Notes: generated from the letters alone by a model not told the origin. A stretch of DNA of 64,000 bases from an uncultured Ignavibacteriaceae bacterium (GCA_964534125.1 CAZHOJ010000003.1:265188-329187); one strand, 5' to 3'. Numbered from the stretch's first letter, positions 3,885 through 36,656 are shown. Translations and numbers: made by a program.

Positions 3885-4289
3885 ATGCGGATAGCTGTCG
3901 CGACAGAGAATGGAAGGACGATCTCCGCTCATTTCGGACGGAGCCCCCTGTTCGCGATCTACGATATCGCCAACGGGACATTCACACAAAAAGAGCTGCG
4001 GAAGAACACCTTCACACAGCATTTCAAAGAGGGACATCAGCACGGGGAGGGACACGGGCAGGGCGCACATCATCATGGCGAAGGCCATGGAGACGGGCAT
4101 CGCGGCGTTGCCGCGGGGCTCAGCGATTGCCAGGTGGTCATCAGCCACGGCATGGGGCGGCGCGCCGTCGATGACCTCACCGCAGCGGGAAAGGAGATCT
4201 TCGTCACATCGGAGACCGATGTCCAGACGGCCGTTCGTGCCTGGATCGACAAGACGCTCACGACCGATGAACGGAGGATCCACGGGTGA
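3885..4289 (+). CDS. NifB/NifX-type (dinitrogenase FeMo-cofactor-binding fold) protein with a His-rich insert
   Basis: MRIAVATENGRTISAHFGRSPLFAIYD .. VVISHGMGRRAVDDL is typical of the NifX/NifB C-terminal domain family. The insert HFKEGHQHGEGHGQGAHHHGEGHGDGH lies at nt 4020-4100. Confidence 0.7.
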   Translation: MRIAVATENGRTISAHFGRSPLFAIYDIANGTFTQKELRKNTFTQHFKEGHQHGEGHGQGAHHHGEGHGDGHRGVAAGLSDCQVVISHGMGRRAVDDLTAAGKEIFVTSETDVQTAVRAWIDKTLTTDERRIHG

Positions 4290-5844: not shown

Positions 5845-5882
5845 TTTTTGGTATTTTTCAATTCATCTACGGATCAACGTCT

Positions 5883-7139: not shown

Positions 7140-7157
7140 CCGACAAGGAAGGACTTC

Positions 7158-8051: not shown

Positions 8052-8151
8052 CCGGCGAATCACTCCGACGGACGATCAACGAACAACAGCAGCAGGACCA
8101 TACGGAACCTGCCGGCAACGGGTGTCCGTTCGATCCCGGAGGAGGTGTTAC

Positions 8152-14789: not shown

Positions 14790-14894
14790 ACATTGTCATA
14801 CCCTCAGGTGGCGCGAAATTCATACGGAATTACTATCTTTGGGAACCTCATTCACGCTTCACAGCTGCACACCATCACTACACAGGAGGCATCC

Positions 14895-16565
14895 ATGAAC
14901 CGAACGTTACTGCTTGTCGCGGCAACGGTCCTTTTCGTCGTCGCCGGCACCGCCCAGACGTGGGAACTGACATGGAAACTGGACAATGTGCCGTTCTCAC
15001 AGAAGACCGACGAAATGGCCATGGTCAAGGCAGGATTCGACACAGACAATGACGGGTGGGGAGAATTCCTTTGTTCCTGGACGGACGAAGACACGAATGC
15101 CGTCCTTCTCTATGAGGCCACTGCGGACAACACGTACGAGCTCAAGTGGTGGTTCGTCTATCCAGTCTCTGGCGCATCCTTCGCTTCGTTCGCAGTCGGC
15201 GACGTGAACTCCAACGGAAAGGTTGACATCGTCGTCGCATTCCCGTCGTATGTCGACACGGACGTTAATCCCCCCCGGTTCTGGACATTCGAATGGAACG
15301 GCGTACAGGGAGAGAATGTGTATGGCACGTGGAACGCCGGATCCAATGCGTTCGAGCCAAACGACCACTGGAACCTGGGCGTTGCGGACAGCTATGAATT
15401 CCGGCCGTACAGCATACTTATCGACGATATCGATAAAGATTCACAGAACGAACTCATCGTCGGTGTGCGTCAGGCAACGCCCTCCTCAACCCGGGAGATC
15501 TATGTAGCATCCTTCGCTGGAGATTGGGGAGGATTTATGACGTGGGAGGTCGAGTATCGCTTCTCCGGAACATTCGGAGGTTCGCTGTACAGCACGACCA
15601 TCGGAGACCTTGATAATGATGGGAACAAGGAACTTCACGCCTTCATCTGGAACCTGTGGTCGCTGAAGGTCATCGAATGCACCGGCAACAAGCAGTATAC
15701 CGAGTCCGCATTCATCGATGCGTTGTATACGGCCGATGGCACAGACTACGGAGCAGTGGACGGCGTCGTGACGCTCGACGTGAATGGCGACAACTCGAAC
15801 GAGATGTACATCGCCGGAAGCGAGGACCCTAACAAGCTGTTCGTCCTCTCCGGGATCACGGACGTCAGCCTGCTCACAGGAACTGATGTGAAAGAGTTCT
15901 ACACGATCCCGCCAGTCGTCAATGGCGGGTTCCGATCGATGCAGGCCGCGGACCAGGACGGGGACGGAAAGATCGAACTGGTCATCGCGGGCGAAGCGGA
16001 AGGACGCATCCATTCTCTTGAGTACAAAGGGACGGGCGACCCTGCGGATTCCGCCAATTGGGAATATTCTTTGCTCTTTGATATTGCCACGGAGACTGAC
16101 TCGGCCGTGACGCCCAGGTTCTTCTATGGATATCCCGCAGGAGATATGGACAAGGACGGAAAGGCCGAATATGCATTCGTCAACTACAGCCCCGACTATG
16201 CTTCCTATCCGGGTGATGCACCCCTTCGCATCATCGAGATGAGCTCTGTGACGGATGTGCGGGACGATGGAGCCGGCATTCCGGAAGGATTCGAGCTCGG
16301 ACAGAACTTCCCGAATCCTTTCAATCCGACGACGTCGTTCACATACCGTGTTCCGCTCCACAGCCGTGTGCAGGTGCGTGTCTTCACTATCACGGGCGAG
16401 CTCGTGGCAATGCTCGTGAACGGCGAGAAGGAACCCGGTGCTTACACGGCGACCTGGGAGCCGAACCTCCCGAGCGGCACGTATCTTTACCAGATCGTGG
16501 CCGAGCCGCTCGACGGAAGCGGCCAGCGCTTCTCTGAGTCGAAGAAGATGATCCTGCTCCGATAA
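14895..16565 (+). CDS. FG-GAP/VCBS-repeat (integrin-alpha-like propeller) protein with a T9SS C-terminal sorting domain
   Basis: Signal peptide. Seven DxDxDG-like loops (DTDNDGWGEF, GDVNSNGKVD, DDIDKDSQNE, GDLDNDGNKE, LDVNGDNSNE, ADQDGDGKIE, GDMDKDGKAE). CTD is NFPNPFNPTTSF..KKMILLR. Confidence 0.85.
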   Translation: MNRTLLLVAATVLFVVAGTAQTWELTWKLDNVPFSQKTDEMAMVKAGFDTDNDGWGEFLCSWTDEDTNAVLLYEATADNTYELKWWFVYPVSGASFASFAVGDVNSNGKVDIVVAFPSYVDTDVNPPRFWTFEWNGVQGENVYGTWNAGSNAFEPNDHWNLGVADSYEFRPYSILIDDIDKDSQNELIVGVRQATPSSTREIYVASFAGDWGGFMTWEVEYRFSGTFGGSLYSTTIGDLDNDGNKELHAFIWNLWSLKVIECTGNKQYTESAFIDALYTADGTDYGAVDGVVTLDVNGDNSNEMYIAGSEDPNKLFVLSGITDVSLLTGTDVKEFYTIPPVVNGGFRSMQAADQDGDGKIELVIAGEAEGRIHSLEYKGTGDPADSANWEYSLLFDIATETDSAVTPRFFYGYPAGDMDKDGKAEYAFVNYSPDYASYPGDAPLRIIEMSSVTDVRDDGAGIPEGFELGQNFPNPFNPTTSFTYRVPLHSRVQVRVFTITGELVAMLVNGEKEPGAYTATWEPNLPSGTYLYQIVAEPLDGSGQRFSESKKMILLR

Positions 16566-22995: not shown

Positions 22996-24294
22996 ATGAA
23001 GGCTTCGTTCCTGCTCGTCCTCGCAGCCAGTTCGCTTTGCGTCGCCCAGCAACGATATGCTGATTCCCTCTTTGCAGTTCAACAGACCGACACGAACCTC
23101 GTCTATGCAACGGCTCCTCAGCTTCAATCGCCATACGCCGGCGAGAGTGCCACCCAGAGCACTAGCCTGAAAATGCATGTGTTCCAACCGGCGGGCGACA
23201 CGGAGCAGGAGCGGCCGATGCTGCTTTGTTTTCATGGCGGTGCGTTCGTCAGCGGGAACAAAGAGCATGATGACATGCTGGCCTTCTGCAGGACCTTCGC
23301 GGCGAAGGGGTACGTGACCGCGACCGTTCAATACCGGCTGGGCATGAACGCCACCAGCGCCGTCAGTGGTACTCGCTCTGTCTATCGGGCACTTCAGGAC
23401 GGCCGGGCGGCCATCCGATACGCAAAGGCCCATGCATCGACGTTCGGGATCGATACCTCGAGAGTCTTCATGCTCGGGAGCAGCGCCGGCGCTTTCATCG
23501 GCCTCCAGGCGATCTATATGAACACGTCGGCGGAAAAGCCTGCCGCCGCAGGACATATTTCCCATATGCCTCCGACGCTCGACGACGGTCCCGACCTCGG
23601 CGGACTGGATGCGATAGAGTCATCGTTGACCGGATTCGGCCAGCCGGCTGCCGTCATCTCCTTGTGGGGTGCCGTTCAGGATACCGTGCTTATTACCCCG
23701 ACCGACGTAACGCCCGTACTTCTGGTGCATGGCACCGCCGACAACATCGTTCCGTTCGGCGTGGGCTCGCCGTTCAACCTCACATCGCTTCCCGCCACAT
23801 ACGGCAGCAGCCCCATCCATGAGCGTCTGATGAACCTCGGCTTTCCCCATGAGACATACTTCGTCCCAGGAGAGGGGCATGAATTCTACGGGGTCTCCAA
23901 CGGCATGTGGAATCCGGCACCGAATGCATACTGGGACACGGTGGTCACGCGAGTCACGGAGTTCCTGCTTCCAAAGGTCACTTCAGTGAAGGAGGCGTAT
24001 TCCAATGACATTCCGGGAATGTTCGTGCTGGACCAGAACTTTCCGAATCCGTTCAATCCCTCGACCAGGATCTCCTTCCAACTTCCAATTGCTTCTCATG
24101 TTTCGCTCGCCGTGTATGATCTCCTCGGACGCGAGGTGGATGTGCTCCTTGACAGCAGGATGCCAGCGGGAGCCCACACGGCGGTCTGGAACGCAGCGCG
24201 CATGCCAACCGGCATGTATCTCTGCAAACTGACAGCGACGGCGCTGGATGGATCAACAGCATCCGGGATCAGAAGAATGGTCCTCCTTCGCTAG
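22996..24294 (+). CDS. Alpha/beta-hydrolase carbohydrate-esterase-like protein with a T9SS C-terminal sorting domain
   Basis: Signal peptide, HGGAFVSG (oxyanion), GSSAGA (nucleophile elbow), HGTADNIVP. CTD is NFPNPFNPSTRISF..RRMVLLR. Confidence 0.85.
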   Translation: MKASFLLVLAASSLCVAQQRYADSLFAVQQTDTNLVYATAPQLQSPYAGESATQSTSLKMHVFQPAGDTEQERPMLLCFHGGAFVSGNKEHDDMLAFCRTFAAKGYVTATVQYRLGMNATSAVSGTRSVYRALQDGRAAIRYAKAHASTFGIDTSRVFMLGSSAGAFIGLQAIYMNTSAEKPAAAGHISHMPPTLDDGPDLGGLDAIESSLTGFGQPAAVISLWGAVQDTVLITPTDVTPVLLVHGTADNIVPFGVGSPFNLTSLPATYGSSPIHERLMNLGFPHETYFVPGEGHEFYGVSNGMWNPAPNAYWDTVVTRVTEFLLPKVTSVKEAYSNDIPGMFVLDQNFPNPFNPSTRISFQLPIASHVSLAVYDLLGREVDVLLDSRMPAGAHTAVWNAARMPTGMYLCKLTATALDGSTASGIRRMVLLR

Positions 24295-24749: not shown

Positions 24750-25412
24750 ATGAACAAGGAATCGTTGTTCCAAAGACTGATCCCGGAACAATACCGGAAT
24801 CTCTATGCGGTTGCGTACTCGATCATATCCCTCCTCTCGATTCTTCTCTCAGTTCCGCGGATAGTCCGTGAAGCGGGAGGCCGCTCCGCTGGTATCGCCG
24901 CGGGCATTGTGTGGGGACTCCTGCTGATCGGTTCCGTTGTCTTCCTTATGGTGCGATGGAGCGATATCGCCCGATACCGGCGAAGATTGGTACAATCAAG
25001 CAATGTTCTTCTTGCCACGGGCTTCGTGCTTGCATCCGGCTGGATCGTGTACACGAGCGGCTCCCCCGTCCGTCTGTTAGCCTGGCCAGCTGTGATCCTT
25101 TTCTTTGCGATGATGTTCATCGGCGGCTCCATGCTCTTGCTGTGGTTGGGCCAACGCGAAGAACGAACGCTTGCGAACACCCTGAAAGACAGTTGTGCGC
25201 TTTTTCAGCAAACGTTCTTGAATGGAATAGCAGAGGCGATGAATGCAACGAAAGAGATGTATGGATTCGAGAGGTTCCATGCTGCGCTGGAGAAATGGCA
25301 CGATCTGCCGGCAACGGCAATACGGGACAGGCTGCTAGCAGATGTGAAGGAGTTCACGGGAGCAGCAGCGCAGCATGATGATATGACGGTAGTGGTAGTC
25401 AGAGTTCTATAA
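24750..25412 (+). CDS. Truncated paralog: 4-TM membrane domain fused to only the last ~60 aa of a SpoIIE/PP2C domain
   Basis: The C-terminus EAMNATKEMYGFERFHAALEKWHDLPATAIRDRLLADVKEF..HDDMTVVVVRVL is near-identical to the end of the 27899-30370 product. The rest of the PP2C domain is absent. Confidence 0.65.
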   Translation: MNKESLFQRLIPEQYRNLYAVAYSIISLLSILLSVPRIVREAGGRSAGIAAGIVWGLLLIGSVVFLMVRWSDIARYRRRLVQSSNVLLATGFVLASGWIVYTSGSPVRLLAWPAVILFFAMMFIGGSMLLLWLGQREERTLANTLKDSCALFQQTFLNGIAEAMNATKEMYGFERFHAALEKWHDLPATAIRDRLLADVKEFTGAAAQHDDMTVVVVRVL

Positions 25413-25499: not shown

Positions 25500-27902
25500 A
25501 TGAAGCGTACAATCGTTCTGTCATCGTCTGCTTTCGTCTTTATGTGTGTCGTGAGCAGCTGGGCGTTCGGGACCTATGGCGCGGGCAGCCTTCGCGAGAC
25601 TGGACAGCAGCTCACGCTCATTCTCGTCAACATGCTCATCGGTCTTGGCGCGTCCTTTCTGGTTCTCCGGATTGTTGCGAAGCTGATCGGCCGGCGTATG
25701 AAGCCTTTCTCGCGAAAGGTGCACCGTGCCGTGGTCCTGACCACCATCACCGCGGGTCTGTTCGCTGCTCCGATGCTCAACTTTGAGATCGGACTAACAC
25801 TTCGATATTTATTCGGGGACTTGACCGCATCCTCCCACCTCCTCGTCAACGAGTCCTCCGTATGGATGCTCCTTATCGCATCCATCGTTGGCTGGATCAC
25901 AGTCGCGTATGTCCTCCCACTCATCTACGAGGAATGGATCGGACGCCGGTCACGTATGGTCGCGCCCGTTGTATCCAGAAAGGAACGGTTGTTTCTGTTG
26001 TTGAAACTTGCTCTCGGCGGTTTCGTCGTCTGGCTGCTCGTCCTCGCAACAATGTCGGGTGATTGGACGGGGATCCTCCAGCGAGGCGGTATCATGGACG
26101 ACCTCACAGGATCAAGAAGAGTTGAAAGTGATTCCATTGTCGTCATTGATCTCATATTGCCGGCAATGAGCCATTATACCTACCTGAACGGTGTACGTCG
26201 CGTCGGAATGGAGGTCGACAAGCATGGAGCAAGGATCAAGCTTGTTATCCTTCCGGCGGACCTTGAACAGTCGTCACGCATCGCCGGCGTCATCCGGGAC
26301 ATCGCGACTCAGGGCAATGTCGTGTTCGCAGTCCCCCCACAACATCGCACACGCAATACCGATATCCGTTTGGCAGAGAATCCTATCCATGACGCCATAC
26401 CGATCGATTGGGGGGTGGCGAGCACCATGGATCTGAAAGACAGATATCTCTGGTGGCCACCCCTCACGTTCCGGCCAGTCGGGTACATCGAGGAGACCAC
26501 GGGCGAGGTTGTGCCGGAGGCTGTGCTTCGCCTCGTCGCCCGTTTCGTGGATGATGCAGACACGACACATGGACATGTTGAGGGATCCCGGTTCACAATG
26601 GGATCATATTCAACTGGCCTTTTTGCAGACGGAGAGGCACCAATTGTTCGGCGGCTTGCGACATGGAAGCTCCCTCGGGGCGCGGTCTCATGGCAGGAGG
26701 ACAATGATACGCTCCGATATGCCTACAACAATATGCAGCTGACGACACTTGACTCAGCCGGAGTGAACGCTTTCAGGGGGAAGATCGTCATCCTCGATCC
26801 CGGGGGTTCTGCGGGCTTCCCTGCTCAGGGAGAATCGTACGGCGAGACCGCGGCAATCATCACGCACCAGATACTCCGGGGATATTCCCGGACTCCTCTG
26901 GATACCTGGACGGACTGGATCGTTCTCGGTACACTGGTTGCCTGTATCGCGATGATGCTCTACCTGCAGCCAATCGTCGCAGCGATTGTCATTTTTATGT
27001 TGGGGTACGGCGATCTGATCCTCGGTATGTGGATATCGAACCAGCTCGAGGTTGTTGCCCAGATCCTTCCGCCGGCGCTGACCGCCTTCTGGTCCGTCCC
27101 TGTGCTCCTTTTCGTACGGGTCTTTCATGACCGTCGGCGACTTGAGTCGCGGGAGAAGAAGCGGGCTGAGGAGGAACTCAAGACCGCCCGCGAGATGCAG
27201 ATGGGACTCATGCCCACAGTGGATCCCACCATCCCCGGATTCCAGATCAGCGGCATCTGCCGTCCGGCGAACGAGGTGGGGGGCGACTTCTTCGACTATG
27301 TGTGGCTCGACGACCGAAAGACACGCCTGGGCATCGTCATCGTCGATGTGAGCGGCAAAGCTATGAAAGCGGCCATTACAGCGGTCCTCACAAGCGGCAT
27401 GCTCTACCGGGAGATGGGGACTAAGGACACGCCCAAGACCATCCTTCGCAAGATCAACAAGCCGATGTACCTCAAGACGGACCGCCGCGTGTTCACGGCG
27501 ATGACATTCGCGGTGCTGGATGTGAAGAAAAAGACGCTCCAGCTGTCGAATGCCGGGCAGACATTCCCCGTCCTTATCCGGGGTGGGAAATCAGAACTGG
27601 TGCGCCTGAAGGGCCAGCGGCTCCCGCTGGGGGTACAGGAAGAGACGTTGTATGAGGACCGGACGGTCCGGCTGAAGAAGGGAGATACGGTGCTGTTCTA
27701 CACGGACGGTATCACGGAAGCGATGAACGAGAAGGGTGAGATGTACGGGTTCGAACGATTTGTCGAGGCGACGACAGCACTGGACACCGACCGCACTGCA
27801 CGGCAGTCTGTAGGGTTGTTGATGGACTCTGTCACCGGCTTCGCAGGCTCTGCAGCGCAGCATGACGATATGACCATCGTCTCTCTCAGGGTGCTGGCAT
27901 GA
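25500..27902 (+). CDS. Membrane sensor PP2C (SpoIIE/RsbU-type) phosphatase with a CHASE2-like extracytoplasmic domain
   Basis: 800 aa: N-terminal TM bundle, about 270-aa loop (SIVVIDLILPA..), three TMs, a coiled linker, then PP2C motifs (GGDFFDY, VIVDVSGKAMKAA, FYTDGITEA, QHDDMTIV). Confidence 0.85.
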   Translation: MKRTIVLSSSAFVFMCVVSSWAFGTYGAGSLRETGQQLTLILVNMLIGLGASFLVLRIVAKLIGRRMKPFSRKVHRAVVLTTITAGLFAAPMLNFEIGLTLRYLFGDLTASSHLLVNESSVWMLLIASIVGWITVAYVLPLIYEEWIGRRSRMVAPVVSRKERLFLLLKLALGGFVVWLLVLATMSGDWTGILQRGGIMDDLTGSRRVESDSIVVIDLILPAMSHYTYLNGVRRVGMEVDKHGARIKLVILPADLEQSSRIAGVIRDIATQGNVVFAVPPQHRTRNTDIRLAENPIHDAIPIDWGVASTMDLKDRYLWWPPLTFRPVGYIEETTGEVVPEAVLRLVARFVDDADTTHGHVEGSRFTMGSYSTGLFADGEAPIVRRLATWKLPRGAVSWQEDNDTLRYAYNNMQLTTLDSAGVNAFRGKIVILDPGGSAGFPAQGESYGETAAIITHQILRGYSRTPLDTWTDWIVLGTLVACIAMMLYLQPIVAAIVIFMLGYGDLILGMWISNQLEVVAQILPPALTAFWSVPVLLFVRVFHDRRRLESREKKRAEEELKTAREMQMGLMPTVDPTIPGFQISGICRPANEVGGDFFDYVWLDDRKTRLGIVIVDVSGKAMKAAITAVLTSGMLYREMGTKDTPKTILRKINKPMYLKTDRRVFTAMTFAVLDVKKKTLQLSNAGQTFPVLIRGGKSELVRLKGQRLPLGVQEETLYEDRTVRLKKGDTVLFYTDGITEAMNEKGEMYGFERFVEATTALDTDRTARQSVGLLMDSVTGFAGSAAQHDDMTIVSLRVLA

Positions 27903-30370
27903 AGATCTCGCAATCATTGTCCCGCAATGAATGGACCGCGATCCTCACGGCTTGCGGCCTGCTGTATCTCCTCGGGGTGATGAATCTCCTTCTGGAACGA
28001 TGGTGGCTGAACGCATGGAGTATCACATGGCTCCTGATCGGACTGGTTCCCTATGCCGTCATCATACTGTTCCTCTCTCTGGTGGCTCTGCTTCTGGACC
28101 GGGCCCGGAGAGCGTACGGCTGGGATTCCACCAGGCCGAGCGTTCGTATTCTCCGCACAGGCGTATTGTTTGCAACGGCTTTTCTCTCGGGCCTGCTCGG
28201 ACAAGTGGCGTTCAACGTGGCCCTGAATCTGACAGGGCGCATACAGGTGGATATTTTCCGGGTCTACCCGACAGAGCTCATCGCAGGCATAACTGCCGGG
28301 ATCGTGATCCTTGTCCTCATGTGGGCATATGGCACTCAGCGCCGGTTCATTGTTGCGGTCGGTGTGCTAGGTGCAGCACTGTATGTGCTGCCCTCTGTCG
28401 TTCCTGGCTCTCTCCAACGGGATCTGGAAGCTGGATGGATCGATGTGCTGAACAGCACCAATCCGGATCCCGCATATGTTCCGGACACGTCTGTCGTTGT
28501 CATCCATCTGGATTCCTGGACAGGGGCCGAGGACATGCGTTCGCTCTTCCGGCTCATCGCCCGGTCTGGTCCGTCTGCGATAGGGATCATGTTTCCTGTG
28601 TACACCTTCGTGGATGCCGGGAAGGATCCCACGATGTACGCTATTCTTCCCAAAGAGCGGACAGTGTTTGGGGTCTTCCCATATGGAAAAGACCGAGACA
28701 CACCAGACACATGGAATCGGCTCGAACGCGTTACCGATGTACGTTCCGGAAGCGCGTCGGGCGTGAACTCTGAAGAAAAGTGGTTCCTGCCCAGGGGCAC
28801 GTATCTGCCTGTTATTCAGCAAGACTCCCTTCTCCGCTTCTCCCATCGTGCATGTGACGCCGGTCTCGCACTGGCCCTCATCCACCGGAACGCTGACCTG
28901 CCTCTCCCCATAGAACGCGTATCTTCTCTCTTGTTTGGCGAAACCATTCGGATCGACGGACTCTCTATTCCAACAACATCAACCGGAGCCGCCATTGTCA
29001 ACCGGTTCAGGGACGAGAGCGTTTGGGGCCAGGCAGTACTCAAAGCTGAGCAACGGGAAATGCCCTTCGGAGGCGGAGTGGCCCTGTATCTGCACCCACA
29101 TGGGCTCCAGGGTTCGGACGGCTATGTCATGCCCAAACGCATGGCAGACGGGTCCGAAGATGTTGCATTCGGCGTGCCGGGTCCCTACGCAGCCAGCACA
29201 GACACGGATCACATTCCGGGGCTTCGGGGAAGGATCGTTCTCATAACCATGCGGTCGCAGCATGATGTTCCGAAAATCCTTCCCCAGCATATGGAGGCCG
29301 CAGAGGATGCTGCAGGGACCTCCTATAACGCTATCATCAAGGGTCTGCTGGTCGTCGATCCGATACGCTCCCTGAACGATACGATTTCATCGATCCTGTT
29401 CCTGCTAATGATGCTGTTGGTGCTCTGGCTCTTCAGGCGCCATCGGCCCTTCAGAGCAGCAGTCCAGGTCACTATGATCACGATAGCCGCTCTCCTTATC
29501 GGGGTGATCCTCTTCGGTGTTGCAGACGTCCACATCCCCGGTTCACCCGTACTGATCCCCGCCGGGCTGGGACTCATCATCCTCTTCCCTGCTGAGCTGG
29601 CGAGAGAGCGCCGACTCATCCAGGCAGAACGGGCCAGACTCTCTTCTGAACTCAAAACTGCCCACGACATGCAGATGGGTCTGATGCCGAAGGAGGATCC
29701 GGTCATTCCGGGACTCGACATTTCTGCATCCTGTGTACCTGCTTCCGAAGTTGGGGGGGATTTCTATGATTTTGTCTGGCTGGACCGGAGACATACGAAG
29801 CTCGGCATCGCGGTAGCAGATGTGTCAGGGAAAGCCATGAAGGCAGCCATGACCGCCGTGATGACCAGCGGGATGCTCTCTAGCGAGGTACAAAAAAGCA
29901 GCTCCCCCAGAGAAGTCCTCCGGCGCATCAATCATCCGCTCTACATCAGATCGGACAGACGTGTTTTTACCGCGTTGGCGTTTGCCGTGATAAACACCAA
30001 AGACAAAACTCTGACATACTCCAGCGCAGGACAAACACCGCCCGCACTTGTGCGGAGAGCCAGGATCCAAGATCTCAAGATCCAAGGAGTACGTCTGCCG
30101 TTGGGAGTAAAGGAAGACGTGATATATAAGGAGCTGAAGCTCGTGCTGCAGAAAGGCGACGTACTGGTGCTGTCCACGGATGGCATCGTCGAGGCGATGA
30201 ATGCAAAGAAGGAGCTGTATGGATTCGAGAGGTTCCATGCTGCGCTGGAGAAATGGCACGATCTGCCGGCAACGGCCATCCGAGACAGGCTGCTGGCGGA
30301 TGTGAAGGAGTTTGCAGGAACAACGGCACAGTATGATGATATGACTGTTGTCATTGTGAAGATCATGTAG
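27899..30370 (+). CDS. Second membrane sensor PP2C phosphatase with a CHASE2-like domain
   Basis: 823 aa with the same architecture (VVVIHLDSW.., GGDFYDF, AVADVSGKAMKAA, STDGIVEA, QYDDMTVV). ATGA overlap with the upstream gene. Confidence 0.85.
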   Translation: MKISQSLSRNEWTAILTACGLLYLLGVMNLLLERWWLNAWSITWLLIGLVPYAVIILFLSLVALLLDRARRAYGWDSTRPSVRILRTGVLFATAFLSGLLGQVAFNVALNLTGRIQVDIFRVYPTELIAGITAGIVILVLMWAYGTQRRFIVAVGVLGAALYVLPSVVPGSLQRDLEAGWIDVLNSTNPDPAYVPDTSVVVIHLDSWTGAEDMRSLFRLIARSGPSAIGIMFPVYTFVDAGKDPTMYAILPKERTVFGVFPYGKDRDTPDTWNRLERVTDVRSGSASGVNSEEKWFLPRGTYLPVIQQDSLLRFSHRACDAGLALALIHRNADLPLPIERVSSLLFGETIRIDGLSIPTTSTGAAIVNRFRDESVWGQAVLKAEQREMPFGGGVALYLHPHGLQGSDGYVMPKRMADGSEDVAFGVPGPYAASTDTDHIPGLRGRIVLITMRSQHDVPKILPQHMEAAEDAAGTSYNAIIKGLLVVDPIRSLNDTISSILFLLMMLLVLWLFRRHRPFRAAVQVTMITIAALLIGVILFGVADVHIPGSPVLIPAGLGLIILFPAELARERRLIQAERARLSSELKTAHDMQMGLMPKEDPVIPGLDISASCVPASEVGGDFYDFVWLDRRHTKLGIAVADVSGKAMKAAMTAVMTSGMLSSEVQKSSSPREVLRRINHPLYIRSDRRVFTALAFAVINTKDKTLTYSSAGQTPPALVRRARIQDLKIQGVRLPLGVKEDVIYKELKLVLQKGDVLVLSTDGIVEAMNAKKELYGFERFHAALEKWHDLPATAIRDRLLADVKEFAGTTAQYDDMTVVIVKIM

Positions 30371-30494
30371 AGATGGAAGATGAGAGATAAGAGACATCAG
30401 ACCAAAGATGGAAGATGAAAGACGGCAGAATATTTCTGAATGAAGATCCAGCTGCTACCTGACGGAAAATCGCATGGGTGAAGGAGACATCGCG

Positions 30495-30926
30495 ATGAAA
30501 GATCATACGAACATGGTCGAGGTCCACCTGCCGAACGAGCTCGGCTACGAAAAGATAGCCATGGAAGCGGCGGCGGCGACCGCAAAGATGCTCGGCTTCT
30601 CACCGGACCGCGTGGACGACCTCCGTACAGCGGTGAGCGAGGCCTGTATTAATGCCATCGAGCATGGACCGAAACAGCAGAGGACAGAGCGTCTTCTGAT
30701 CACGCTCAAGGCCGGCGAAGGAGAGCTTCAGGTGGAGGTCCACGATACAGGCGATCCATATACAATCCCCCACAAGAGACCCAACCTGAAGCGGAAAATG
30801 GAGGGAGGCTCTCCGCCCCGCGGCTGGGGGCTCTTCCTCATCAGGAACCTCGTCGACAAGTTCGAAGTGGCCGCCAGCGAAGGCGGCAACGTGACACGCA
30901 TGATCATCACCCTGCACAAGAGTTGA
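30495..30926 (+). CDS. RsbW/SpoIIAB-type anti-sigma-like serine kinase (HATPase_c)
   Basis: N-box EACINAIEHG, G1 HDTGDP, G2 RGWGLFLI. GAAGGAG lies 8 nt upstream of ATG 30495. The ORF is open from 30474. Confidence 0.85.
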   Translation: MKDHTNMVEVHLPNELGYEKIAMEAAAATAKMLGFSPDRVDDLRTAVSEACINAIEHGPKQQRTERLLITLKAGEGELQVEVHDTGDPYTIPHKRPNLKRKMEGGSPPRGWGLFLIRNLVDKFEVAASEGGNVTRMIITLHKS

Positions 30927-30950
30927 GCACTATCATCCAAGGAGCCATCT

Positions 30951-31310
30951 ATGGACCAGCAACCGACCATCGACATCGTCACCCGGGACAATACGGCGGT
31001 GCTGAACATCACGGGGGACGTGACCAGCTTCGCCGAAGAGCCGGTGATGAACGCTTATTCGAAGGCTTCCCAGGAGGGAAGCAAGAACATCCTCCTGAAA
31101 TTCCAGGAGGCGACCTACATCAACAGCGCCGGCATCGCCATCATCATCGGCATGATGTCGGACGCTCAGAAGGCGAAGCAGCGGGTCGCTGTCTGCGGTC
31201 TGTCAAACCATTTCAAGAAGATCTTCGACATGATCGGCCTGGTCGACTACCTCGAACTCTACGATGACGAGCAGCAGGCGCTGGACAAGCTGAACAAGAA
31301 GAAGCGATGA
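30951..31310 (+). CDS. STAS-domain anti-sigma-factor antagonist (RsbV/SpoIIAA-like)
   Basis: 119 aa. ..EATYINSAGIAIIIG.. carries the phosphorylatable Ser in the usual position. AAGGAG RBS. Confidence 0.85.
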   Translation: MDQQPTIDIVTRDNTAVLNITGDVTSFAEEPVMNAYSKASQEGSKNILLKFQEATYINSAGIAIIIGMMSDAQKAKQRVAVCGLSNHFKKIFDMIGLVDYLELYDDEQQALDKLNKKKR

Positions 31311-32566
31311 GACGACGATCCGCTCTGCCGCAGCGGAACGAGATCCTCGGCGACCTGGAACGCCTGCAGCGCCTGCATGTGGGGCTCGAGGCGCGTCTGC
31401 AGACAATTCTTGACCTCACACACCCGGACCAGACGTCAGGACAGCTTCCGTCGCTCGAGGAATCTCTGGCCTCGACGCTCTACAGCCTTGTCGGCAACTT
31501 CGGCACGCTCGGCGGTGCCGTCTATGTGATACGCCGTCAGGTCCCTTCCGCACAGCGTGTGGCATCGACCGTCCTGCCCCGCAATCACTGTGAGGACCTC
31601 GCGGCAGCCCTCGCAGCGGCCAATCTGACCGACTTTCCGTCGAAGATCCTTTCCGCACGATCGTTCAAGTCCCTGCGGGCATTTCCGGGAGTCGCCGAGC
31701 TGCTCCGGTCCATGAAGGTCTCTGTCCTTGCCCCCCTTCCGCTTGGGAAAGACCAGAGCGCGTTCATCATCCTCGGCCGGCGCATGAACCGGAAGCCATT
31801 CTCCAGGGCCGATGTATCGGTCCTTTCCGTTCTCATTGCCACGGCCTCGCTCTCCGCCAGGTTCGCGGGGATGATGCAGACGAACCTCGAGCTCCAGATG
31901 CAGCGGTTCAGGGTCCAGGGATTGCTCGAGGAGTTCATCGCCCCAGAGGTCGTCCAGCAGCTATTGTCCAGCCCCCGACGTCGGGCCACCACTGACCGCC
32001 GTCGGGTCAGTGTGCTCATGGCGGACATCCGGAACTTCACTGCAACGTCGGAGATCACCCCGCCGGAGGTCCTCGTCCGATGCATGAACTCGTTTTACGA
32101 CTCAGTGGCGGCCGTGACGATGCGACATGGGGGCACGGTCGACAAGTTCATCGGTGATGCCATCCTTGCCGTCTTTGGCGCTCCCGTTGCAATGGACGAC
32201 CATGCTCAACGGGCGGTCAGGGCGGGTCAGGACATGGTGCGGATCTTCGAGGAGCTGAAAGAGAAAGAAGAGGAGTTCGGAGAGGTCTTCCGATCGTCTG
32301 GACTCGGCGTCGGGATCGCCACCGGCGAGGTCATCAGCGGCTCGATGGGGTCTGGCAAGCGGGTCGACTACACGGTGATCGGACGAACGGTCAACCTGGC
32401 AGCACGCATTACCTCCCTTGCTGGTCCGCAGCAGGTCGTCTTCGATGAGACCACGCGAGCAGACCTCGGAGACAGCATCACCTTCTCGACGCTCCCCTCA
32501 CAACTTGTGAAGGGGATCGGGGAGAAAGTTGCGCTCTTCGAGGCAGGAGATGGCTCACAAGAATGA
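31307..32566 (+). CDS. Class III adenylate/guanylate cyclase with an N-terminal GAF-like domain
   Basis: Catalytic motifs VLMADIRNFT, FIGDAILAVFGAP and IGRTVNLAARI. The ATG overlaps the STAS stop (ATGA). Confidence 0.85.
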   Translation: MRRRSALPQRNEILGDLERLQRLHVGLEARLQTILDLTHPDQTSGQLPSLEESLASTLYSLVGNFGTLGGAVYVIRRQVPSAQRVASTVLPRNHCEDLAAALAAANLTDFPSKILSARSFKSLRAFPGVAELLRSMKVSVLAPLPLGKDQSAFIILGRRMNRKPFSRADVSVLSVLIATASLSARFAGMMQTNLELQMQRFRVQGLLEEFIAPEVVQQLLSSPRRRATTDRRRVSVLMADIRNFTATSEITPPEVLVRCMNSFYDSVAAVTMRHGGTVDKFIGDAILAVFGAPVAMDDHAQRAVRAGQDMVRIFEELKEKEEEFGEVFRSSGLGVGIATGEVISGSMGSGKRVDYTVIGRTVNLAARITSLAGPQQVVFDETTRADLGDSITFSTLPSQLVKGIGEKVALFEAGDGSQE

Positions 32567-32670: not shown

Positions 32671-34911
32671 CTACCGCAGCAATATCATCCTCCGCACCTG
32701 CATCACATCCCCTACCAACAGACGATAGAAATACACGCCGCTCGGGAATCCCTGCGCACTCCAGGTCACCGAATGCGAGCCCGCGGGAAGGACATCGCTC
32801 ATAAGCACAGCCACTTCACGCCCAAGCACGTCGAACACTGACACCTTCGCATATCCTCTCTCCTCCATCCTCCATCCTATCGTCGTACTCGGGTTGAATG
32901 GGTTCGGGTAGTTCTGCTCAAGAGTGAAGTCTACGGGCGTCTGCACCGTATTGTCCACACCTGTGACGACAGGATATTTCAGCCGCACGTCGTCCAGGTA
33001 GATCGTCCCCGACGTCACCGTTCCGGCCGTTGTGGCAGGGGCAAGCTGTATCTCGATGCGCTTGAGCGCCAGCGGATAGCTCACGTTCGACACTCCCGAG
33101 AGAGGCGTCAGGCCGATCATCGCCGCATTGACCGCGAGGAACTTCGTGCTGTCGTTCAGGTATTTCAGGCCGAGAGCACGGAATATATTCCCCTCGGCAT
33201 CTTCGAATCGGTAGTAGAGCCTATGCCGGCGGCCGTCGGTCTGGGCATCCAGATAAATCGAGTCGGGAATCCCATAGATGGGGATATCTTTGTTCAGGTA
33301 GATCATGTACGGCGACTTCGAGACATCATACGTAAGCGAATACTCGATGCCGAACCACTGGTTCTGCTCCCCACCTGTAGTGGTCACGATGCCCACGAAA
33401 AGCGAATCCAGGGTCGGCCCCTCGAAGGTCCAGCCGGTCAATTCATGCAACGGATCGATAGTCTGAAAGCCGCTTGCCACCTCCACACGGACCTCACTCG
33501 TATCGCTATAGCCGCCGAGCGTTGCGATGATATGCGTGGTGCCTGTCTGTTTTCCCGTGAAGACACCTGCCGCATCGACTGTCCCTACCGATGGATCCGT
33601 CGAGACGAGCGAGAACATCGAGATTGGTATATCGTACTTCAGCGAGTCGGCATCATACGTATCGATCCGCAAGGCCACTGTGCGCGACGTGTCTGTGACA
33701 ACCAGCTTCGGCCGGATCTCGAAGAACGCGAAATCGAAGGTGGATACATAGCAGGAATCCGTGACACCATTGAACAGCGCATAGACGTAGCCGCTGTCTG
33801 CATGGTCTGACGGCGTGAAGATGCCCGTCGGTGCGATGGTCCCGATGCCCGCATCGCAGCTGTACTGCACCATCGATTGCGGCAGCATGATGCGGTTCCC
33901 GTTCGGGTCGAGAACGGTCGAGGTGAAGAGGTGCCTGTCGTACCGGAAGACTCTCAGCGAATCGGACGCGAGCTGCATCGATGTCAGGTCCTGCGGAGCA
34001 ACGGACGAGAGAACGATAAGGGAATAGAGGAATTCGGCGGCGAACCCACGGAGGATGTCCTCGTTGCCGCCGTGAGCCATAGTGGGGAAGAACATGCTCT
34101 GTGTGTAGATGCCGAGCTCAGTAGCGACCCGGTCGATGCGGACGCCGCCGTAGATGACGATCGTGAAATCCGTCGAGACGCCGCTGTCAGGCGGGACGAC
34201 CGGATCGAGCAGTCCGTGGAAATTGGCGACCGGAACATCGCCTGCTTCGATCCATGACGGATCCATCGTCGCGCCGACGTAATTGACGATCCCATGGATC
34301 CCCGTCGAGTAGCCGGGATTTCCGCTGGTCCCTTCGATGTCACCCCATGTCACCTGGTCCACGTCCGGAGGGATCTCATCCTGGTCCCAGTACGCATAAT
34401 GTACTGCCACCATCGAGCCGGCCGATGAACCGTAGAGATAGATGTGAGAGGTATCGATACTGTACTCTGCCGCTTTCGACCTGAGAAATCTCACCGCCGC
34501 CTTGGTGTCCTGCACTCCTCTGAGCAATTCCTCAAGGATCGTCGTCACGCCCTTCGGGGATTCGATGCCCAGGCGATAGTCGATGGTCGCCGCGACATAT
34601 CCGCGGCGGGCCGCATCGCTGCAGAAGGTCGCCATACCCCCCCGGTCGCCGCTTATCAGACTCCCCCCGTGGATGAACACGATGAGCGGCCGTGATTGCA
34701 TCGTATCGCCGGTCGGGACGTAGAGGTCGAGGCGCAGCGTATCGACCGAGCCGCTGATGCCGGTGTTGCTGCCGAACACGATCCCCGCGGTCGTCGTGGC
34801 CGAGGGGAAGATAAGGTCTTTGAATCTTGTCTGGGCGTCCGAAGCTGAGGCGAAGAGGATCACGGAGGCGATCACCAGCGCCCGGAGACTTGAGCGATGC
34901 GGAGAGAGCAT
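32671..34911 (-). CDS. Multidomain esterase (alpha/beta hydrolase) with Ig-like/carbohydrate-binding-like modules and a T9SS C-terminal sorting domain
   Basis: Signal peptide from MLSPHRSSLRALVIASVILFASASDAQ, HGGSLISG, GSSAGS. CTD is NYPNPFNPSTTIGW..RRMILLR. The esterase domain is paralogous to 22996-24294. Confidence 0.85.
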   Translation of the reverse strand: MLSPHRSSLRALVIASVILFASASDAQTRFKDLIFPSATTTAGIVFGSNTGISGSVDTLRLDLYVPTGDTMQSRPLIVFIHGGSLISGDRGGMATFCSDAARRGYVAATIDYRLGIESPKGVTTILEELLRGVQDTKAAVRFLRSKAAEYSIDTSHIYLYGSSAGSMVAVHYAYWDQDEIPPDVDQVTWGDIEGTSGNPGYSTGIHGIVNYVGATMDPSWIEAGDVPVANFHGLLDPVVPPDSGVSTDFTIVIYGGVRIDRVATELGIYTQSMFFPTMAHGGNEDILRGFAAEFLYSLIVLSSVAPQDLTSMQLASDSLRVFRYDRHLFTSTVLDPNGNRIMLPQSMVQYSCDAGIGTIAPTGIFTPSDHADSGYVYALFNGVTDSCYVSTFDFAFFEIRPKLVVTDTSRTVALRIDTYDADSLKYDIPISMFSLVSTDPSVGTVDAAGVFTGKQTGTTHIIATLGGYSDTSEVRVEVASGFQTIDPLHELTGWTFEGPTLDSLFVGIVTTTGGEQNQWFGIEYSLTYDVSKSPYMIYLNKDIPIYGIPDSIYLDAQTDGRRHRLYYRFEDAEGNIFRALGLKYLNDSTKFLAVNAAMIGLTPLSGVSNVSYPLALKRIEIQLAPATTAGTVTSGTIYLDDVRLKYPVVTGVDNTVQTPVDFTLEQNYPNPFNPSTTIGWRMEERGYAKVSVFDVLGREVAVLMSDVLPAGSHSVTWSAQGFPSGVYFYRLLVGDVMQVRRMILLR

Positions 34912-35118
34912 TGCGTTCTTCCTTTCTTTTCCCCCTTCGATCGAACCGGGAATCATCAATTTGACCCAGCGGAAGCCCATTGTCAAGAAGAGGGTTCTCC
35001 CTGGCATTCCCATTCGTGCGATGTGGCTGCATGCAGGGAATTCTTCAGGAAACTCTTGGCCCTCTGAACGGATTTTCTATCATATTGGTGACAACCATCC
35101 TCGCAGAAGGACACAACC

Positions 35119-36263: not shown

Positions 36264-36656
36264 CTATTGCGCCTCGACAGGTACTACAGCTTCACGCCAA
36301 TCGGCTGTCGTCTTCACGAGCCGCTCCGCGAGCATGAGCATCATCTTCCTGGCAAGCTCAGGATATTCCTTGATCAGCTCATCGAGGCTCACTCTGATGT
36401 GAAGAAGGATCGTCGGTTCCTGGGCGATGAGGGTGGCCGTGCGGGGAATGTTGAGGAGGAAGCCGAGCTCACCGATGACCGTGCCGATCTTCGAGATCTC
36501 TGCGACCGTGAGGTCGCTCTTGAAAACACCCACCTTGCCCGAGAGGAGCACATACCATCCGTCGGTCTTGTCCCCTTCACGGAGGATGATGTCGCCCGGG
36601 TTGAAGTAGCGTTTGCCCGACGGCAGTTTGGCGTATTCGGAGATGTCGGTGGCCAT
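36264..36656 (-). CDS. Stand-alone cyclic-nucleotide-binding domain protein
   Basis: 130 aa. FNPGDIILREGD.., GTVIGELGFLLNIPRTATLIA (the phosphate-binding-cassette-like G-E-L..R-T-A). No DNA-binding domain. Confidence 0.8.
   Translation of the reverse strand: MATDISEYAKLPSGKRYFNPGDIILREGDKTDGWYVLLSGKVGVFKSDLTVAEISKIGTVIGELGFLLNIPRTATLIAQEPTILLHIRVSLDELIKEYPELARKMMLMLAERLVKTTADWREAVVPVEAQ

What the first reader, a model, noticed from the sequence alone, without database searches (positions are those of the whole stretch)
25500..32566. Partner-switching module (two CHASE2-like PP2C sensors, RsbW-like kinase, STAS antagonist) wired to a class III nucleotidyl cyclase instead of a sigma factor
Five same-strand genes are tightly packed. 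The two sensor PP2C phosphatases overlap by ATGA. The kinase and the STAS gene follow with canonical RBSs. The STAS stop overlaps the ATG of a GAF-like/class III cyclase (31307, ATGA). No sigma factor gene exists anywhere in the 64-kb window. The STAS protein keeps the phosphorylatable Ser (YINSAG). The kinase keeps its N, G1 and G2 boxes. The cyclase keeps its metal-binding Asp residues (ADI, GDA) and the Asn/Arg of VNLAAR, so all parts look functional. Partner-switching modules with non-sigma outputs are known, for example Pseudomonas HsbR/HsbA acting on a diguanylate cyclase, Vibrio SypE/SypA and Bordetella BtrUVW. I do not know of a characterised case that gates a class III cAMP/cGMP cyclase from two periplasmic CHASE2-type inputs. 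This is the best candidate in the window for an undescribed signalling system.
Basis: partly seen in the sequence, partly recalled or inferred. Interest (0 to 1): 0.75.

Follow-up and report, generated by a model that had tools for sequence, protein, structure and literature searches.

The report
Partner-switching cassette wired to adenylate cyclase
Five same-strand genes encode two membrane sensor phosphatases, a small serine kinase, its STAS-domain substrate and a soluble adenylate cyclase; the kinase, STAS and cyclase genes stay together in at least five distant bacteria, so a phosphorylation switch best known for controlling sigma factors probably controls cAMP synthesis here, which has not been described.

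Summary
Five + strand genes (25500-32566) encode two SpoIIE-type PP2C phosphatases behind multi-pass membrane sensors, an RsbW-like kinase, a STAS protein with the phosphorylatable Ser59, and a GAF-like/class III cyclase. The ATGA overlaps are real and all catalytic residues are present. No sigma factor lies in the window.

Three refinements:
- CHASE2 and GAF are not called by Pfam. Profile-profile comparison supports both (98% and 93%).
- The cyclase carries the Lys280/Thr356 pair of class IIIb adenylate cyclases.
- The kinase probably starts at 30495.

The decisive test was synteny. An exhaustive search found five more full-length orthologues of this cyclase. In every case where the upstream DNA is readable (window plus four others, GC 42-64%, unrelated flanks), kinase and STAS genes sit directly upstream, with a gap of -4 to +38 nt. 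Unrelated cyclases almost never have this arrangement. No sigma factor co-occurs with the module.

The STAS/kinase family is wider than the cyclase linkage: one nested subclade and the Chloroflexales lack the cyclase. The module is therefore generic, and the cyclase is a lineage-specific but anciently conserved output.

Control of the cyclase is inferred, not shown. I found no published precedent. The closest analogue is Pseudomonas HsbR/HsbA/HsbD. This is a new variant of a known kind.

The parts
24750..25412 (+). Truncated third sensor-phosphatase gene: three TM helices plus only the last ~60 residues of a SpoIIE domain. Probably non-functional.
   Evidence: Pfam SpoIIE covers profile positions 132-191 only. 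Nucleotides 25222-25393 are 87% identical to 30180-30351, the 3' end of PP2C-2. TM scan.
25500..27902 (+). Sensor phosphatase 1 (800 aa): 5 TM helices, a ~280-aa extracytoplasmic domain, 3 TM helices, a helical linker and a SpoIIE/PPM domain. The CHASE2-like region is about 26034-27164. The PPM domain is 27321-27893.
   Evidence: SpoIIE 1e-42. Topology. hhalign against 41 CHASE2 regions gives prob 98.2%, E 3.6e-14 over 335 columns; the control gives 0.1%. Metal motifs GGDFFD594, DVSGK616, TDGI735 and HDDMT788.
27899..30370 (+). Sensor phosphatase 2 (823 aa) with the same layout. The sensor part is unrelated to phosphatase 1 by BLASTP but related by profile. The PPM domain is 29795-30364. Its start overlaps the stop of gene 1 (ATGA).
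   Evidence: SpoIIE 7e-45. 47% identity to phosphatase 1 over the last 310 aa only. hhalign to CHASE2 gives 97.5% but only over 132 membrane-proximal columns; sensor 1 versus sensor 2 gives 92% over 370 columns. Motifs.
30371..30494 (+). Only sizeable intergenic gap in the unit. It contains AGATGGAAGATGA twice, 37 nt apart. It may hold an internal regulatory or promoter site.
   Evidence: Sequence. No consensus sigma-70 promoter or terminator was found there.
30474..30926 (+). RsbW-like serine kinase (GHKL, HATPase_c_2). The likely true start is ATG 30495 (143 aa).
   Evidence: HATPase_c_2 4e-27. Best solved relative is RsbW 6m36, E 1e-12, with N, G1 and G2 boxes aligned. Below the NCBIfam RsbW/SpoIIAB equivalog cut-offs: 61 versus 145 bits. 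GGAG lies 8 nt before 30495.
30951..31310 (+). Single-domain STAS protein (119 aa) with phosphorylatable Ser59. A unique 5-residue C-terminal extension (NKKKR) creates the ATGA overlap with the cyclase.
   Evidence: STAS 1e-13. Ser59 aligns with SpoIIAA Ser58. INSAG is invariant in 14 family members.
31307..32566 (+). Soluble class IIIb adenylate cyclase (419 aa): N-terminal helix plus divergent GAF-like domain (about 31352-31888), a long connecting helix (residues 167-208), and the catalytic domain (32000-32518).
   Evidence: Guanylate_cyc 3e-21. D240, K280, D284, T356, N363 and R367. AF2 catalytic domain pLDDT >95; Foldseek TM 0.92 to CyaB 3r5g and 0.86 to CyaC and Cya2. N-terminal region versus GAF regions gives hhalign 93%, E 3.5e-7.
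36264..36656 (-). Stand-alone cyclic-nucleotide-binding protein (130 aa). It is a possible receptor for the cyclase product. It is not part of the operon and is not conserved next to the orthologous cassettes.
   Evidence: cNMP_binding 1.3e-15. No equivalent in L090, L178, L179 or L180.

Best explanation
The five genes form one signalling unit in which a partner-switching phosphorylation cycle sets the activity of a soluble class IIIb adenylate cyclase.

Proposed steps:
1. The RsbW-like kinase uses ATP to keep the STAS protein phosphorylated on Ser59.
2. Each membrane phosphatase senses something outside the cytoplasmic membrane through a CHASE2-like domain. It passes the signal through its last TM helix and a short helical linker to the PPM domain, which removes the phosphate.
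3. The phosphorylation state of STAS decides what it binds.
4. The output is the cyclase encoded right behind STAS. I think STAS most likely docks directly on the degenerate GAF-like domain or the long connecting helix of the cyclase dimer and changes cAMP synthesis, as HsbA does with the diguanylate cyclase HsbD.
5. The kinase competes for unphosphorylated STAS.

Several sensors can thus converge on one cyclase with an ATP-dependent reset.

Shown: gene layout, domains, intact catalytic and phospho-acceptor residues, and conserved kinase-STAS-cyclase synteny.

Inferred: every protein-protein contact, the sign of regulation, the ligand, and the cAMP product.
For: - Layout and overlaps.
- All catalytic residues are intact.
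- Reciprocal synteny: the exhaustive search gives five more full-length orthologues. L090, L178, L179 and L180 all show KIN-STAS-cyclase with STAS-to-cyclase spacing of +4, +12, +38 and -1 nt, against -4 in the window. GC ranges from 42 to 64% and the flanks are unrelated.
- Background: 78 of 80 loci with other class III cyclases, and 4 of 4 other GAF-cyclase loci, have no STAS, kinase or PP2C nearby.
- An independent STAS-to-GAF-GAF-cyclase pair exists in L151.
- On the STAS tree the cyclase-linked genes span the whole Bacteroidota-like clade, and the cyclase-less loci form one nested subclade. This fits an ancestral linkage with one loss.
- No sigma factor lies in the window, and there is no conserved sigma near 87 family loci.
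- The gene order kinase-STAS-target, with translational coupling of STAS and target, differs from the canonical STAS-kinase-sigma order and favours STAS as the direct partner (inference).
- Precedents for STAS proteins regulating enzymes: HsbA-HsbD (PMC5085249) and an Anabaena STAS/glycosyltransferase module (PMC13555669).
- Linker-mediated control of PPM phosphatases by exchangeable sensor domains: PMC12143880.
Against: - There are no biochemical or genetic data for any member.
- The three closest-clustered STAS/kinase relatives of the window (L006, L010, L011; 58-62% STAS identity) and about 70 Chloroflexales loci have the module without a cyclase within 10 kb. The module can therefore work on something else, and may also do so here.
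- The kinase's nearest solved relative is the anti-sigma factor RsbW, and only 64 kb of the genome was visible.
- One orthologous cyclase (P0177) is not preceded by STAS within the 42-99 nt available and has lost Lys280.
- The GAF-like domain is modelled with low confidence, pLDDT 50-80.
- Which protein touches the cyclase cannot be decided from sequence.
Confidence: 0.6

Rival explanations
1. Canonical wiring with the cyclase in the place of the sigma factor. The RsbW-like kinase binds and holds the cyclase inactive. Dephosphorylated STAS captures the kinase and frees the cyclase. STAS itself never touches the cyclase.
For: This is how RsbW/sigma-B and SpoIIAB/sigma-F work. The kinase is most similar to RsbW among solved structures. 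Kinase, STAS and cyclase genes are always together.
Against: In canonical operons the target gene follows the kinase gene. Here it always follows, and is often translationally coupled to, the STAS gene. L151 shows a STAS-cyclase pair, although its upstream DNA is cut off. A GAF-cyclase has no resemblance to the sigma regions that RsbW-type proteins bind (inference).
Confidence: 0.22
2. The partner switch acts on a target encoded elsewhere, such as a sigma factor, an anti-sigma factor or another enzyme. The cyclase is only a co-transcribed passenger or a parallel, independently regulated output.
For: The same STAS/kinase family occurs without any cyclase in L006, L010, L011 and in Chloroflexales. 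Only 64 kb of a contig of at least 347 kb was examined. HsbA in Pseudomonas has more than one partner (PMC5085249, PMC6482189).
Against: A passenger gene would not stay glued to STAS in five lineages with 28-42% cyclase identity and unrelated flanks. This cyclase subfamily is essentially found only in that position. No sigma factor co-occurs within 10 kb.
Confidence: 0.15
3. A Pycsar-like anti-phage system. The cyclase makes a cyclic pyrimidine or other nucleotide on infection, and the nearby cNMP-binding protein is the effector.
For: The cyclase matches PADLOC PycC models (best 2.7e-20). The 130-aa cNMP-binding ORF at 36264-36656 matches the nucleotide-binding part of PycTIR models. L178 has integrase fragments downstream.
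Against: The matches are at the level of the shared class III and cNMP-binding folds. Pfam Guanylate_cyc scores equally well. The cNMP protein has no TIR or TM killing domain, lies 3.7 kb away on the other strand, and is absent from the orthologous cassettes. The cyclase has the Lys/Thr purine (ATP) pair of class IIIb enzymes such as CyaB and CyaC. Pycsar has no PP2C, kinase or STAS components.
Confidence: 0.02

Closest known systems
Pseudomonas aeruginosa HsbR / HsbA / HsbD (HptB branch)
   Same: A PP2C phosphatase plus an RsbW-like kinase act on a STAS protein (HsbA). HsbA physically interacts with a nucleotide-second-messenger synthase encoded nearby, so there is a non-sigma output (PMC5085249). 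The gene order phosphatase/kinase then STAS then cyclase is similar.
   Different: HsbD is a GGDEF diguanylate cyclase making c-di-GMP, not a class III cyclase. HsbR fuses receiver, PP2C and kinase in one cytoplasmic protein fed by a phosphorelay. Here the phosphatases are separate membrane sensors and the kinase is a separate 143-150 aa protein. There is no sequence orthology beyond the shared domains.
Bacillus RsbU/RsbP - RsbV - RsbW - sigma-B and SpoIIE - SpoIIAA - SpoIIAB - sigma-F
   Same: The same three protein families with the same catalytic and phospho-acceptor residues. STAS Ser59 aligns with SpoIIAA Ser58. The kinase's best solved match is RsbW.
   Different: There is no sigma factor in the window or near 85 of 87 family loci. 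The gene order is kinase-STAS-target instead of STAS-kinase-sigma. The proteins score far below the NCBIfam equivalog cut-offs.
CHASE2-class III adenylate cyclase fusion proteins
   Same: The same kind of input (a CHASE2-type extracytoplasmic domain followed by three TM helices) and the same kind of output (a class III cyclase). About 40 of the 120 nearest homologues of the window cyclase are such fusions.
   Different: Here sensor and cyclase are separate proteins. They are connected through PP2C, a phospho-STAS and a kinase, which lets several sensors feed one cyclase.
Vibrio SypE/SypA, Bordetella BtrU/BtrW/BtrV, Rhodobacter RbaV/W/Y, Nostoc HmpU/V/W and HcyA-D, Anabaena HenR-STAS-glycosyltransferase
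   Same: Partner-switching modules whose output is not a sigma factor and where the STAS protein is the likely output-carrying component (PMC8256260, PMC9127174, PMC13555669).
   Different: Their targets are unknown or belong to other classes (biofilm, T3SS, gene transfer agent, motility, glycosyltransferase). None involves cAMP or a class III cyclase.
Class IIIb adenylate cyclases CyaB (P. aeruginosa), CyaC (Spirulina), and GAF-cyclases such as CyaB1
   Same: The catalytic domain fold (TM 0.86-0.92) and residues, including the Lys/Thr substrate pair. The architecture is an N-terminal GAF-type regulatory domain plus a helix.
   Different: The N-terminal domain is too divergent for Pfam GAF (E 0.023). 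The subfamily (~415 aa) is found almost only behind kinase-STAS genes (and the context calls).

Membership tests
Partner-switching system (RsbU/RsbV/RsbW type) | PPM/PP2C phosphatase of the SpoIIE/RsbU subfamily with metal-binding Asp motifs | tested here: met
   Pfam SpoIIE 1e-42 and 7e-45. GGDF(F/Y)D, DVSGK, TDGI and (H/Y)DDMT are present in both. PDB matches are SpoIIE, RssB and Rv1364c.
Partner-switching system (RsbU/RsbV/RsbW type) | Small GHKL serine kinase (HATPase_c_2) with N, G1 and G2 boxes | tested here: met
   HATPase_c_2 4e-27. Alignment to RsbW 6m36 at E 1e-12 with the boxes conserved.
Partner-switching system (RsbU/RsbV/RsbW type) | Single-domain STAS protein with the conserved phosphorylatable Ser | tested here: met
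   STAS 1e-13. Ser59 aligns with SpoIIAA Ser58. It is invariant in the family.
Partner-switching system (RsbU/RsbV/RsbW type) | The kinase phosphorylates STAS, the PP2C dephosphorylates it, and partner binding alternates | not testable with these tools
   Needs biochemistry.
Sigma-factor-controlling partner switch (sigma-B / sigma-F type) | Cognate sigma factor gene in or next to the operon | tested here: not met
   There is no sigma-70 or sigma-54 family ORF in six frames of 64 kb: best 4.6 bits against 18 bits for a divergent control. A sigma lies within 10 kb in only 2 of 87 family loci.
Sigma-factor-controlling partner switch (sigma-B / sigma-F type) | Equivalog-level similarity to RsbW/SpoIIAB and RsbV/SpoIIAA | tested here: not met
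   NCBIfam gives RsbW 61 bits against a cut-off of 145, SpoIIAB 47 against 135, and SpoIIAA 56 against 115.
CHASE2 sensor domain (PF05226) | Match to the family profile at the curated threshold | tested here: not met
   No Pfam CHASE2 hit even at E<=10 for residues 1-560 and 1-585.
CHASE2 sensor domain (PF05226) | Remote homology and topology: an extracytoplasmic ~300-aa domain followed by three TM helices | tested here: inconclusive
   hhalign of the sensor-1 family against 41 CHASE2 regions gives 98.2%, E 3.6e-14 over 335 of 406 columns. The sensor-2 family gives 97.5% but over only 132 columns. The L090/L178/L179 set gives 93.5% over 100 columns. The control gives 0.1%. The topology fits. 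There are five N-terminal TM helices instead of one.
Class III nucleotidyl cyclase, subclass IIIb adenylate cyclase | Cyclase homology domain with two metal Asp, a transition-state Asn and Arg, and the Lys/Thr substrate pair | tested here: met
   Guanylate_cyc 3e-21. D240, D284, K280, T356 (seven residues before N363), N363 and R367 are conserved in the five linked orthologues. Fold TM is 0.92 to CyaB and 0.86 to CyaC.
Class III nucleotidyl cyclase, subclass IIIb adenylate cyclase | cAMP synthesis; bicarbonate/CO2 responsiveness | not testable with these tools
   Needs an enzyme assay.
GAF domain | Match to a GAF profile | tested here: inconclusive
   Pfam GAF_3 gives E 0.023, 15.6 bits against a cut-off of 27. 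hhalign against GAF regions of GAF-cyclases gives 93%, E 3.5e-7 over 165 columns. The order of helices and strands in the AF2 model looked GAF-like to me by eye (no structural comparison of this domain alone), at pLDDT 50-80. The orthologue P0177 carries a weak GAF_3 hit.
HsbR/HsbA/HsbD-type module (STAS protein regulating a nucleotide cyclase) | STAS protein binds the cyclase; the cyclase is a GGDEF enzyme | tested here: not met
   The enzyme is class III, not GGDEF. Binding is not testable. It works like this system by analogy but is not a member.
Pycsar anti-phage system | PycC cyclase adjacent to an effector with a cNMP-binding domain plus a TM or TIR domain | tested here: not met
   Only domain-level PycC hits. 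The cNMP-binding ORF has no effector domain, lies 3.7 kb away on the other strand, and is not conserved.

The most novel reading that the evidence does not exclude
A dedicated, anciently conserved kinase-STAS-cyclase cassette in which the phosphorylation state of a STAS protein acts as a protein 'ligand' for a degenerate GAF domain and so switches cAMP synthesis. This would be the first link between partner switching and cAMP. It would be an 'unbundled' form of the common CHASE2-cyclase fusion that lets a variable set of membrane sensor phosphatases (one to at least five) converge on one cyclase.
Probability: 0.4. Interest if true: 0.75.

Novelty: new variant of a known kind. Interest (0 to 1): 0.62.

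Why it matters
Partner switching is the textbook way bacteria control alternative sigma factors. A handful of cases show it can drive other outputs, but the targets are mostly unknown. This cassette offers a defined, enzymatically measurable target (cAMP synthesis), supported by conserved gene order in at least five lineages.

If confirmed, it would:
- add cAMP to the second messengers governed by Ser phosphorylation of STAS proteins;
- give a function to a degenerate GAF domain as a protein-docking module;
- show how the same sensor type (CHASE2) and output type (class III cyclase) can be joined either by fusion or through a phospho-switch that integrates several sensors and consumes ATP to reset.

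It would also give a tractable in vitro system for asking how STAS proteins choose partners. The organisms are uncultured Bacteroidota-like bacteria, so the physiological role is open.

Tried and rejected
1. Word-indexed homologue searches with the cyclase and with PP2C-2 found only domain-level relatives. At first this suggested the cyclase was an orphan. The exhaustive HMMER search corrected this.
2. The three best STAS relatives on long contigs (L006, L010, L011) lack the cyclase. The tree shows they are one nested subclade.
3. A Pfam search for CHASE2 and GAF at E<=10 was negative or sub-threshold. I replaced it with hhalign plus a negative control.
4. The consensus promoter/terminator scan was uninformative: counts were near the shuffled expectation, and sigma-70 consensus may not apply to this phylum.
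5. I checked generic GAF-cyclases (P0012, P0023, P0053, P0003) for STAS neighbours and found none.
6. Conserved neighbours in Chloroflexales are a carboxyl transferase, PfkB and WecG. They say nothing about the output.
7. The Pycsar reading is rejected.
8. Six literature searches found no description of a partner switch acting on a class III cyclase. The 'adenylate cyclase' hits were two-hybrid methods.
9. I considered a linker-fused STAS-cyclase AlphaFold run but did not attempt it.
10. The Foldseek hits on the whole model say little about the N-terminal domain.

Full report
**What is there**

Window 25500-32566 holds five tightly packed + strand ORFs:
- 25500-27902 (800 aa)
- 27899-30370 (823 aa)
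- 30474-30926 (150 aa)
- 30951-31310 (119 aa)
- 31307-32566 (419 aa)

The first pair and the last pair overlap by ATGA. The next gene (32671-35013) is convergent, so the unit ends at the cyclase.

Pfam calls SpoIIE at the C-termini of both large proteins (1e-42, 7e-45), HATPase_c_2 (4e-27), STAS (1e-13) and Guanylate_cyc (3e-21). NCBIfam places the kinase and STAS near RsbW/SpoIIAB and SpoIIAA, but far below the equivalog cut-offs.

**Residues**

- STAS Ser59 (YINSAG) aligns with the phospho-acceptor Ser58 of SpoIIAA. It is invariant in a family alignment.
- The kinase aligns best with RsbW (6m36, E 1e-12), with N (EACINAIEH), G1 (HDTGD) and G2 (GWGL) boxes.
- Both PPM domains keep GGDF(F/Y)D, DVSGK, TDGI and (H/Y)DDMT.
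- The cyclase keeps the metal Asp240 and Asp284, and the transition-state Asn363 and Arg367.
- The cyclase substrate pair is Lys280/Thr356. Thr356 sits seven residues before Asn363, the position of the specificity Asp in mammalian enzymes. This is the class IIIb adenylate pair as I recall it from the literature on these enzymes.
- Its nearest solved relatives are Cya2, CyaB, CyaC and soluble AC.
- An AlphaFold model has pLDDT above 95 across the catalytic domain. It superposes on CyaB (TM 0.92) and on CyaC and Cya2 (0.86).
- The kinase more likely starts at ATG 30495. A GGAG lies 8 nt upstream, and the resulting 143 aa matches the relatives.

**Sensor and regulatory domains**

Both phosphatases have five N-terminal TM helices, an extracytoplasmic stretch of about 280-320 residues, three more TM helices and a short helical linker before the PPM domain. 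Their PPM halves are 47% identical, but the sensor halves are unrelated by BLASTP.

Pfam does not call CHASE2 even at E<=10. The word-indexed search found no homologue of the sensor part. Profile-profile comparison against 41 CHASE2 regions taken from CHASE2-cyclases gave:
- sensor-1 family: 98.2% (E 3.6e-14) over 335 of 406 columns;
- sensor-2 family: 97.5%, but only over 132 membrane-proximal columns;
- HAMP-type control: 0.1%.

Sensors from related loci fall into the same two types. 'CHASE2-like' is therefore fair as remote homology.

The cyclase N-terminus gives only GAF_3 E 0.023 in Pfam. It matches GAF regions of GAF-cyclases by hhalign (93%, E 3.5e-7, 165 columns). By my reading of its helix and strand order, the model is GAF-like and ends in a long helix (residues 167-208) that leads into the catalytic domain.

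**No sigma factor**

phmmer --max with E. coli RpoD, FliA, RpoE and RpoN, and two ECF sigmas taken from related loci, was run against every stop-to-stop ORF of at least 50 aa in six frames. The best result was 4.6 bits (E 0.64). With the same queries a divergent DUF6596-type ECF in a control locus reached 18 bits. Pfam scans of the unidentified ORFs also showed none.

**Is the cyclase part of the module?**

Starting from STAS:
- The STAS protein belongs to a tight family defined by YINSAGIAI and KIFDMIGL.
- Its three best relatives on long contigs (L006, L010, L011; 58-62% identity) have one to at least four membrane SpoIIE genes, a 139-aa kinase and a 114-aa STAS. A different gene follows each time, never a cyclase and never an adjacent sigma.
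- A scan of one genome per species returned 80 loci.
- About 70 are Chloroflexales with kinase-kinase-STAS and no PP2C, cyclase or sigma within 10 kb.
- One, L090 (a 'Bacteroidetes bacterium' MAG, GC 42%), has PP2C-PP2C-kinase-STAS-cyclase. Its cyclase aligns with the window's over the full length (33% identity, residues 16-413, E 4e-67), and its flanking genes are unrelated.

Starting from the cyclase:
- A metagenome scan found only the L090 contig again as a full-length match.
- It also found L151, where a 108-aa STAS is followed after 51 nt by a GAF-GAF-cyclase.
- The other 78 cyclase loci had no STAS, kinase or PP2C.
- Four other GAF-cyclases had none either.

The exhaustive HMMER search of 1.84 billion representatives then found five more full-length orthologues of about 415 aa: P0159, P0160, P0162 (413 aa, which I take to be the L090 cyclase from its length and match range; not checked by sequence), P0176 and P0177. 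Their contexts are:
- L178: PP2C-kinase-STAS, 12 nt, cyclase.
- L179: PP2C-kinase-STAS, 38 nt, cyclase.
- L180: kinase-STAS, overlapping TGATG, cyclase, with a GAF-SpoIIE 3 kb upstream.
- L181-183 (P0177): the contigs end in a repeat 42-99 nt upstream, with no STAS in that stretch. This orthologue has also lost Lys280.

So every orthologue with readable upstream DNA, five including the window, has kinase-STAS directly upstream. GC ranges from 42 to 64% and cyclase identities are only 28-42%.

On a neighbour-joining tree of STAS proteins, the cyclase-linked genes are spread over the whole Bacteroidota-like clade. The three cyclase-less loci form one nested subclade beside the window. This fits an ancestral linkage and a single loss. 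The window's STAS has a unique five-residue tail (NKKKR) that creates the overlap with the cyclase start.

**Interpretation**

That test fails, and the conserved kinase-STAS-cyclase triad is strong comparative evidence for a functional unit.

I propose the following. The kinase keeps STAS phosphorylated. The CHASE2-like sensor phosphatases dephosphorylate it on signal, via the linker-based activation described for RsbU-type PPMs (PMC12143880). The STAS phosphorylation state then controls the cyclase.

I favour direct STAS docking on the GAF-like domain or connecting helix, for two reasons:
- The target gene always follows STAS and is often translationally coupled to it. In canonical operons the order is STAS-kinase-sigma.
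- STAS proteins are known to bind enzymes directly, as with HsbA-HsbD (PMC5085249) and an Anabaena STAS/glycosyltransferase module.

The alternative, that the kinase sequesters the cyclase, cannot be excluded.

The STAS/kinase family also exists without the cyclase, so a second target, here or elsewhere, is possible. A Pycsar-type defence reading is rejected. The PADLOC hits are at fold level only. The nearby cNMP-binding ORF has no effector domain, lies 3.7 kb away on the other strand, and is not conserved.

**Novelty**

Six full-text searches and a STAS review gave no report of a partner switch controlling a class III cyclase or cAMP.

About 40 of the 120 nearest homologues of the catalytic domain are CHASE2-cyclase fusions. 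The cassette therefore looks like an unbundled version of a common sensor-output pair, with a phosphorylation switch inserted and a variable number of sensors.

I rate it a new variant of a known kind: partner switching with a new class of output.
- Interest: 0.62.
- Confidence that the module regulates the cyclase: about 0.6 to 0.7.
- Confidence in the specific STAS-to-GAF wiring: about 0.4.

**Limits**

- All evidence is comparative. Nothing was tested biochemically.
- Most orthologous loci are short metagenomic contigs without taxonomy.
- Only 64 kb of the genome was visible.
- The representative library collapses relatives above 50% identity, so the true number of cassettes is unknown.

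Noticed in passing
window 24750-25412 (+): A 220-aa ORF with three TM helices and only the last ~60 residues of a SpoIIE domain. Its 3' 172 nt (25222-25393) are 87% identical to the 3' end of PP2C-2 (30180-30351). It looks like a truncated third sensor-phosphatase gene. This fits the variable PP2C copy number in relatives, from 1 to at least 5.
   Followed up: partly
window 36264-36656 (-): A 130-aa protein consisting only of a cyclic-nucleotide-binding domain (Pfam 1.3e-15), 3.7 kb downstream of the cyclase on the other strand. It is a possible cAMP receptor. It is not conserved near the orthologous cassettes.
   Followed up: partly
window 30371-30430 (+): AGATGGAAGATGA occurs twice, 37 nt apart, in the only real intergenic gap of the unit, between PP2C-2 and the kinase. 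It may be an internal regulatory site.
   Followed up: no
L013-L091 (Chloroflexales loci, e.g. L040 7198-10357): The same STAS family sits behind two tandem HATPase_c_2 kinase genes in about 70 Chloroflexales genomes. It lies downstream of a carboxyl transferase gene and beside a PfkB kinase gene, with no PP2C, cyclase or sigma within 10 kb. The role of a two-kinase, one-STAS unit is unexplained.
   Followed up: partly
L151 91-2448: A 108-aa STAS gene is followed after 51 nt by a 659-aa GAF-GAF-class III cyclase in an unrelated metagenomic contig. This is an independent STAS-cyclase pairing. The contig starts 90 nt upstream of STAS, so any kinase is unseen.
   Followed up: partly
L181 1-1344 (also L182, L183): A sixth orthologue of the cyclase (P0177, GC 68-70%) has Ser in place of the adenine-binding Lys (MDSFMGD). 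It is preceded by a (GTGAGTGG)n/(CCACTCAC)n inverted repeat at which all three contigs end.
   Followed up: no
L010 1-9351: At least four, probably five, consecutive membrane SpoIIE sensor-phosphatase genes (707-982 aa) precede one kinase-STAS pair. This is an extreme case of many sensors feeding one switch.
   Followed up: no
window 2412-9797: An apparent metal-homeostasis cluster, read by eye from the translations. It has a Fur-family regulator (2412-2876), two tandem ZnuA-like binding-protein genes with near-identical stretches (7158-8051 and about 8150-9045), and an ABC-3 permease (8931-9797).
   Followed up: no
window 14793-16565, 22996-24294, 32671-35013, 46048-49050: Several large secreted proteins end in the NYPNPFNPST-type C-terminal sorting sequence, which I recognise from memory as a type IX secretion signal (no domain search was run on them). 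Together with the 'Bacteroidetes bacterium' labels of the nearest STAS relatives, this points to a Bacteroidota-like host.
   Followed up: no
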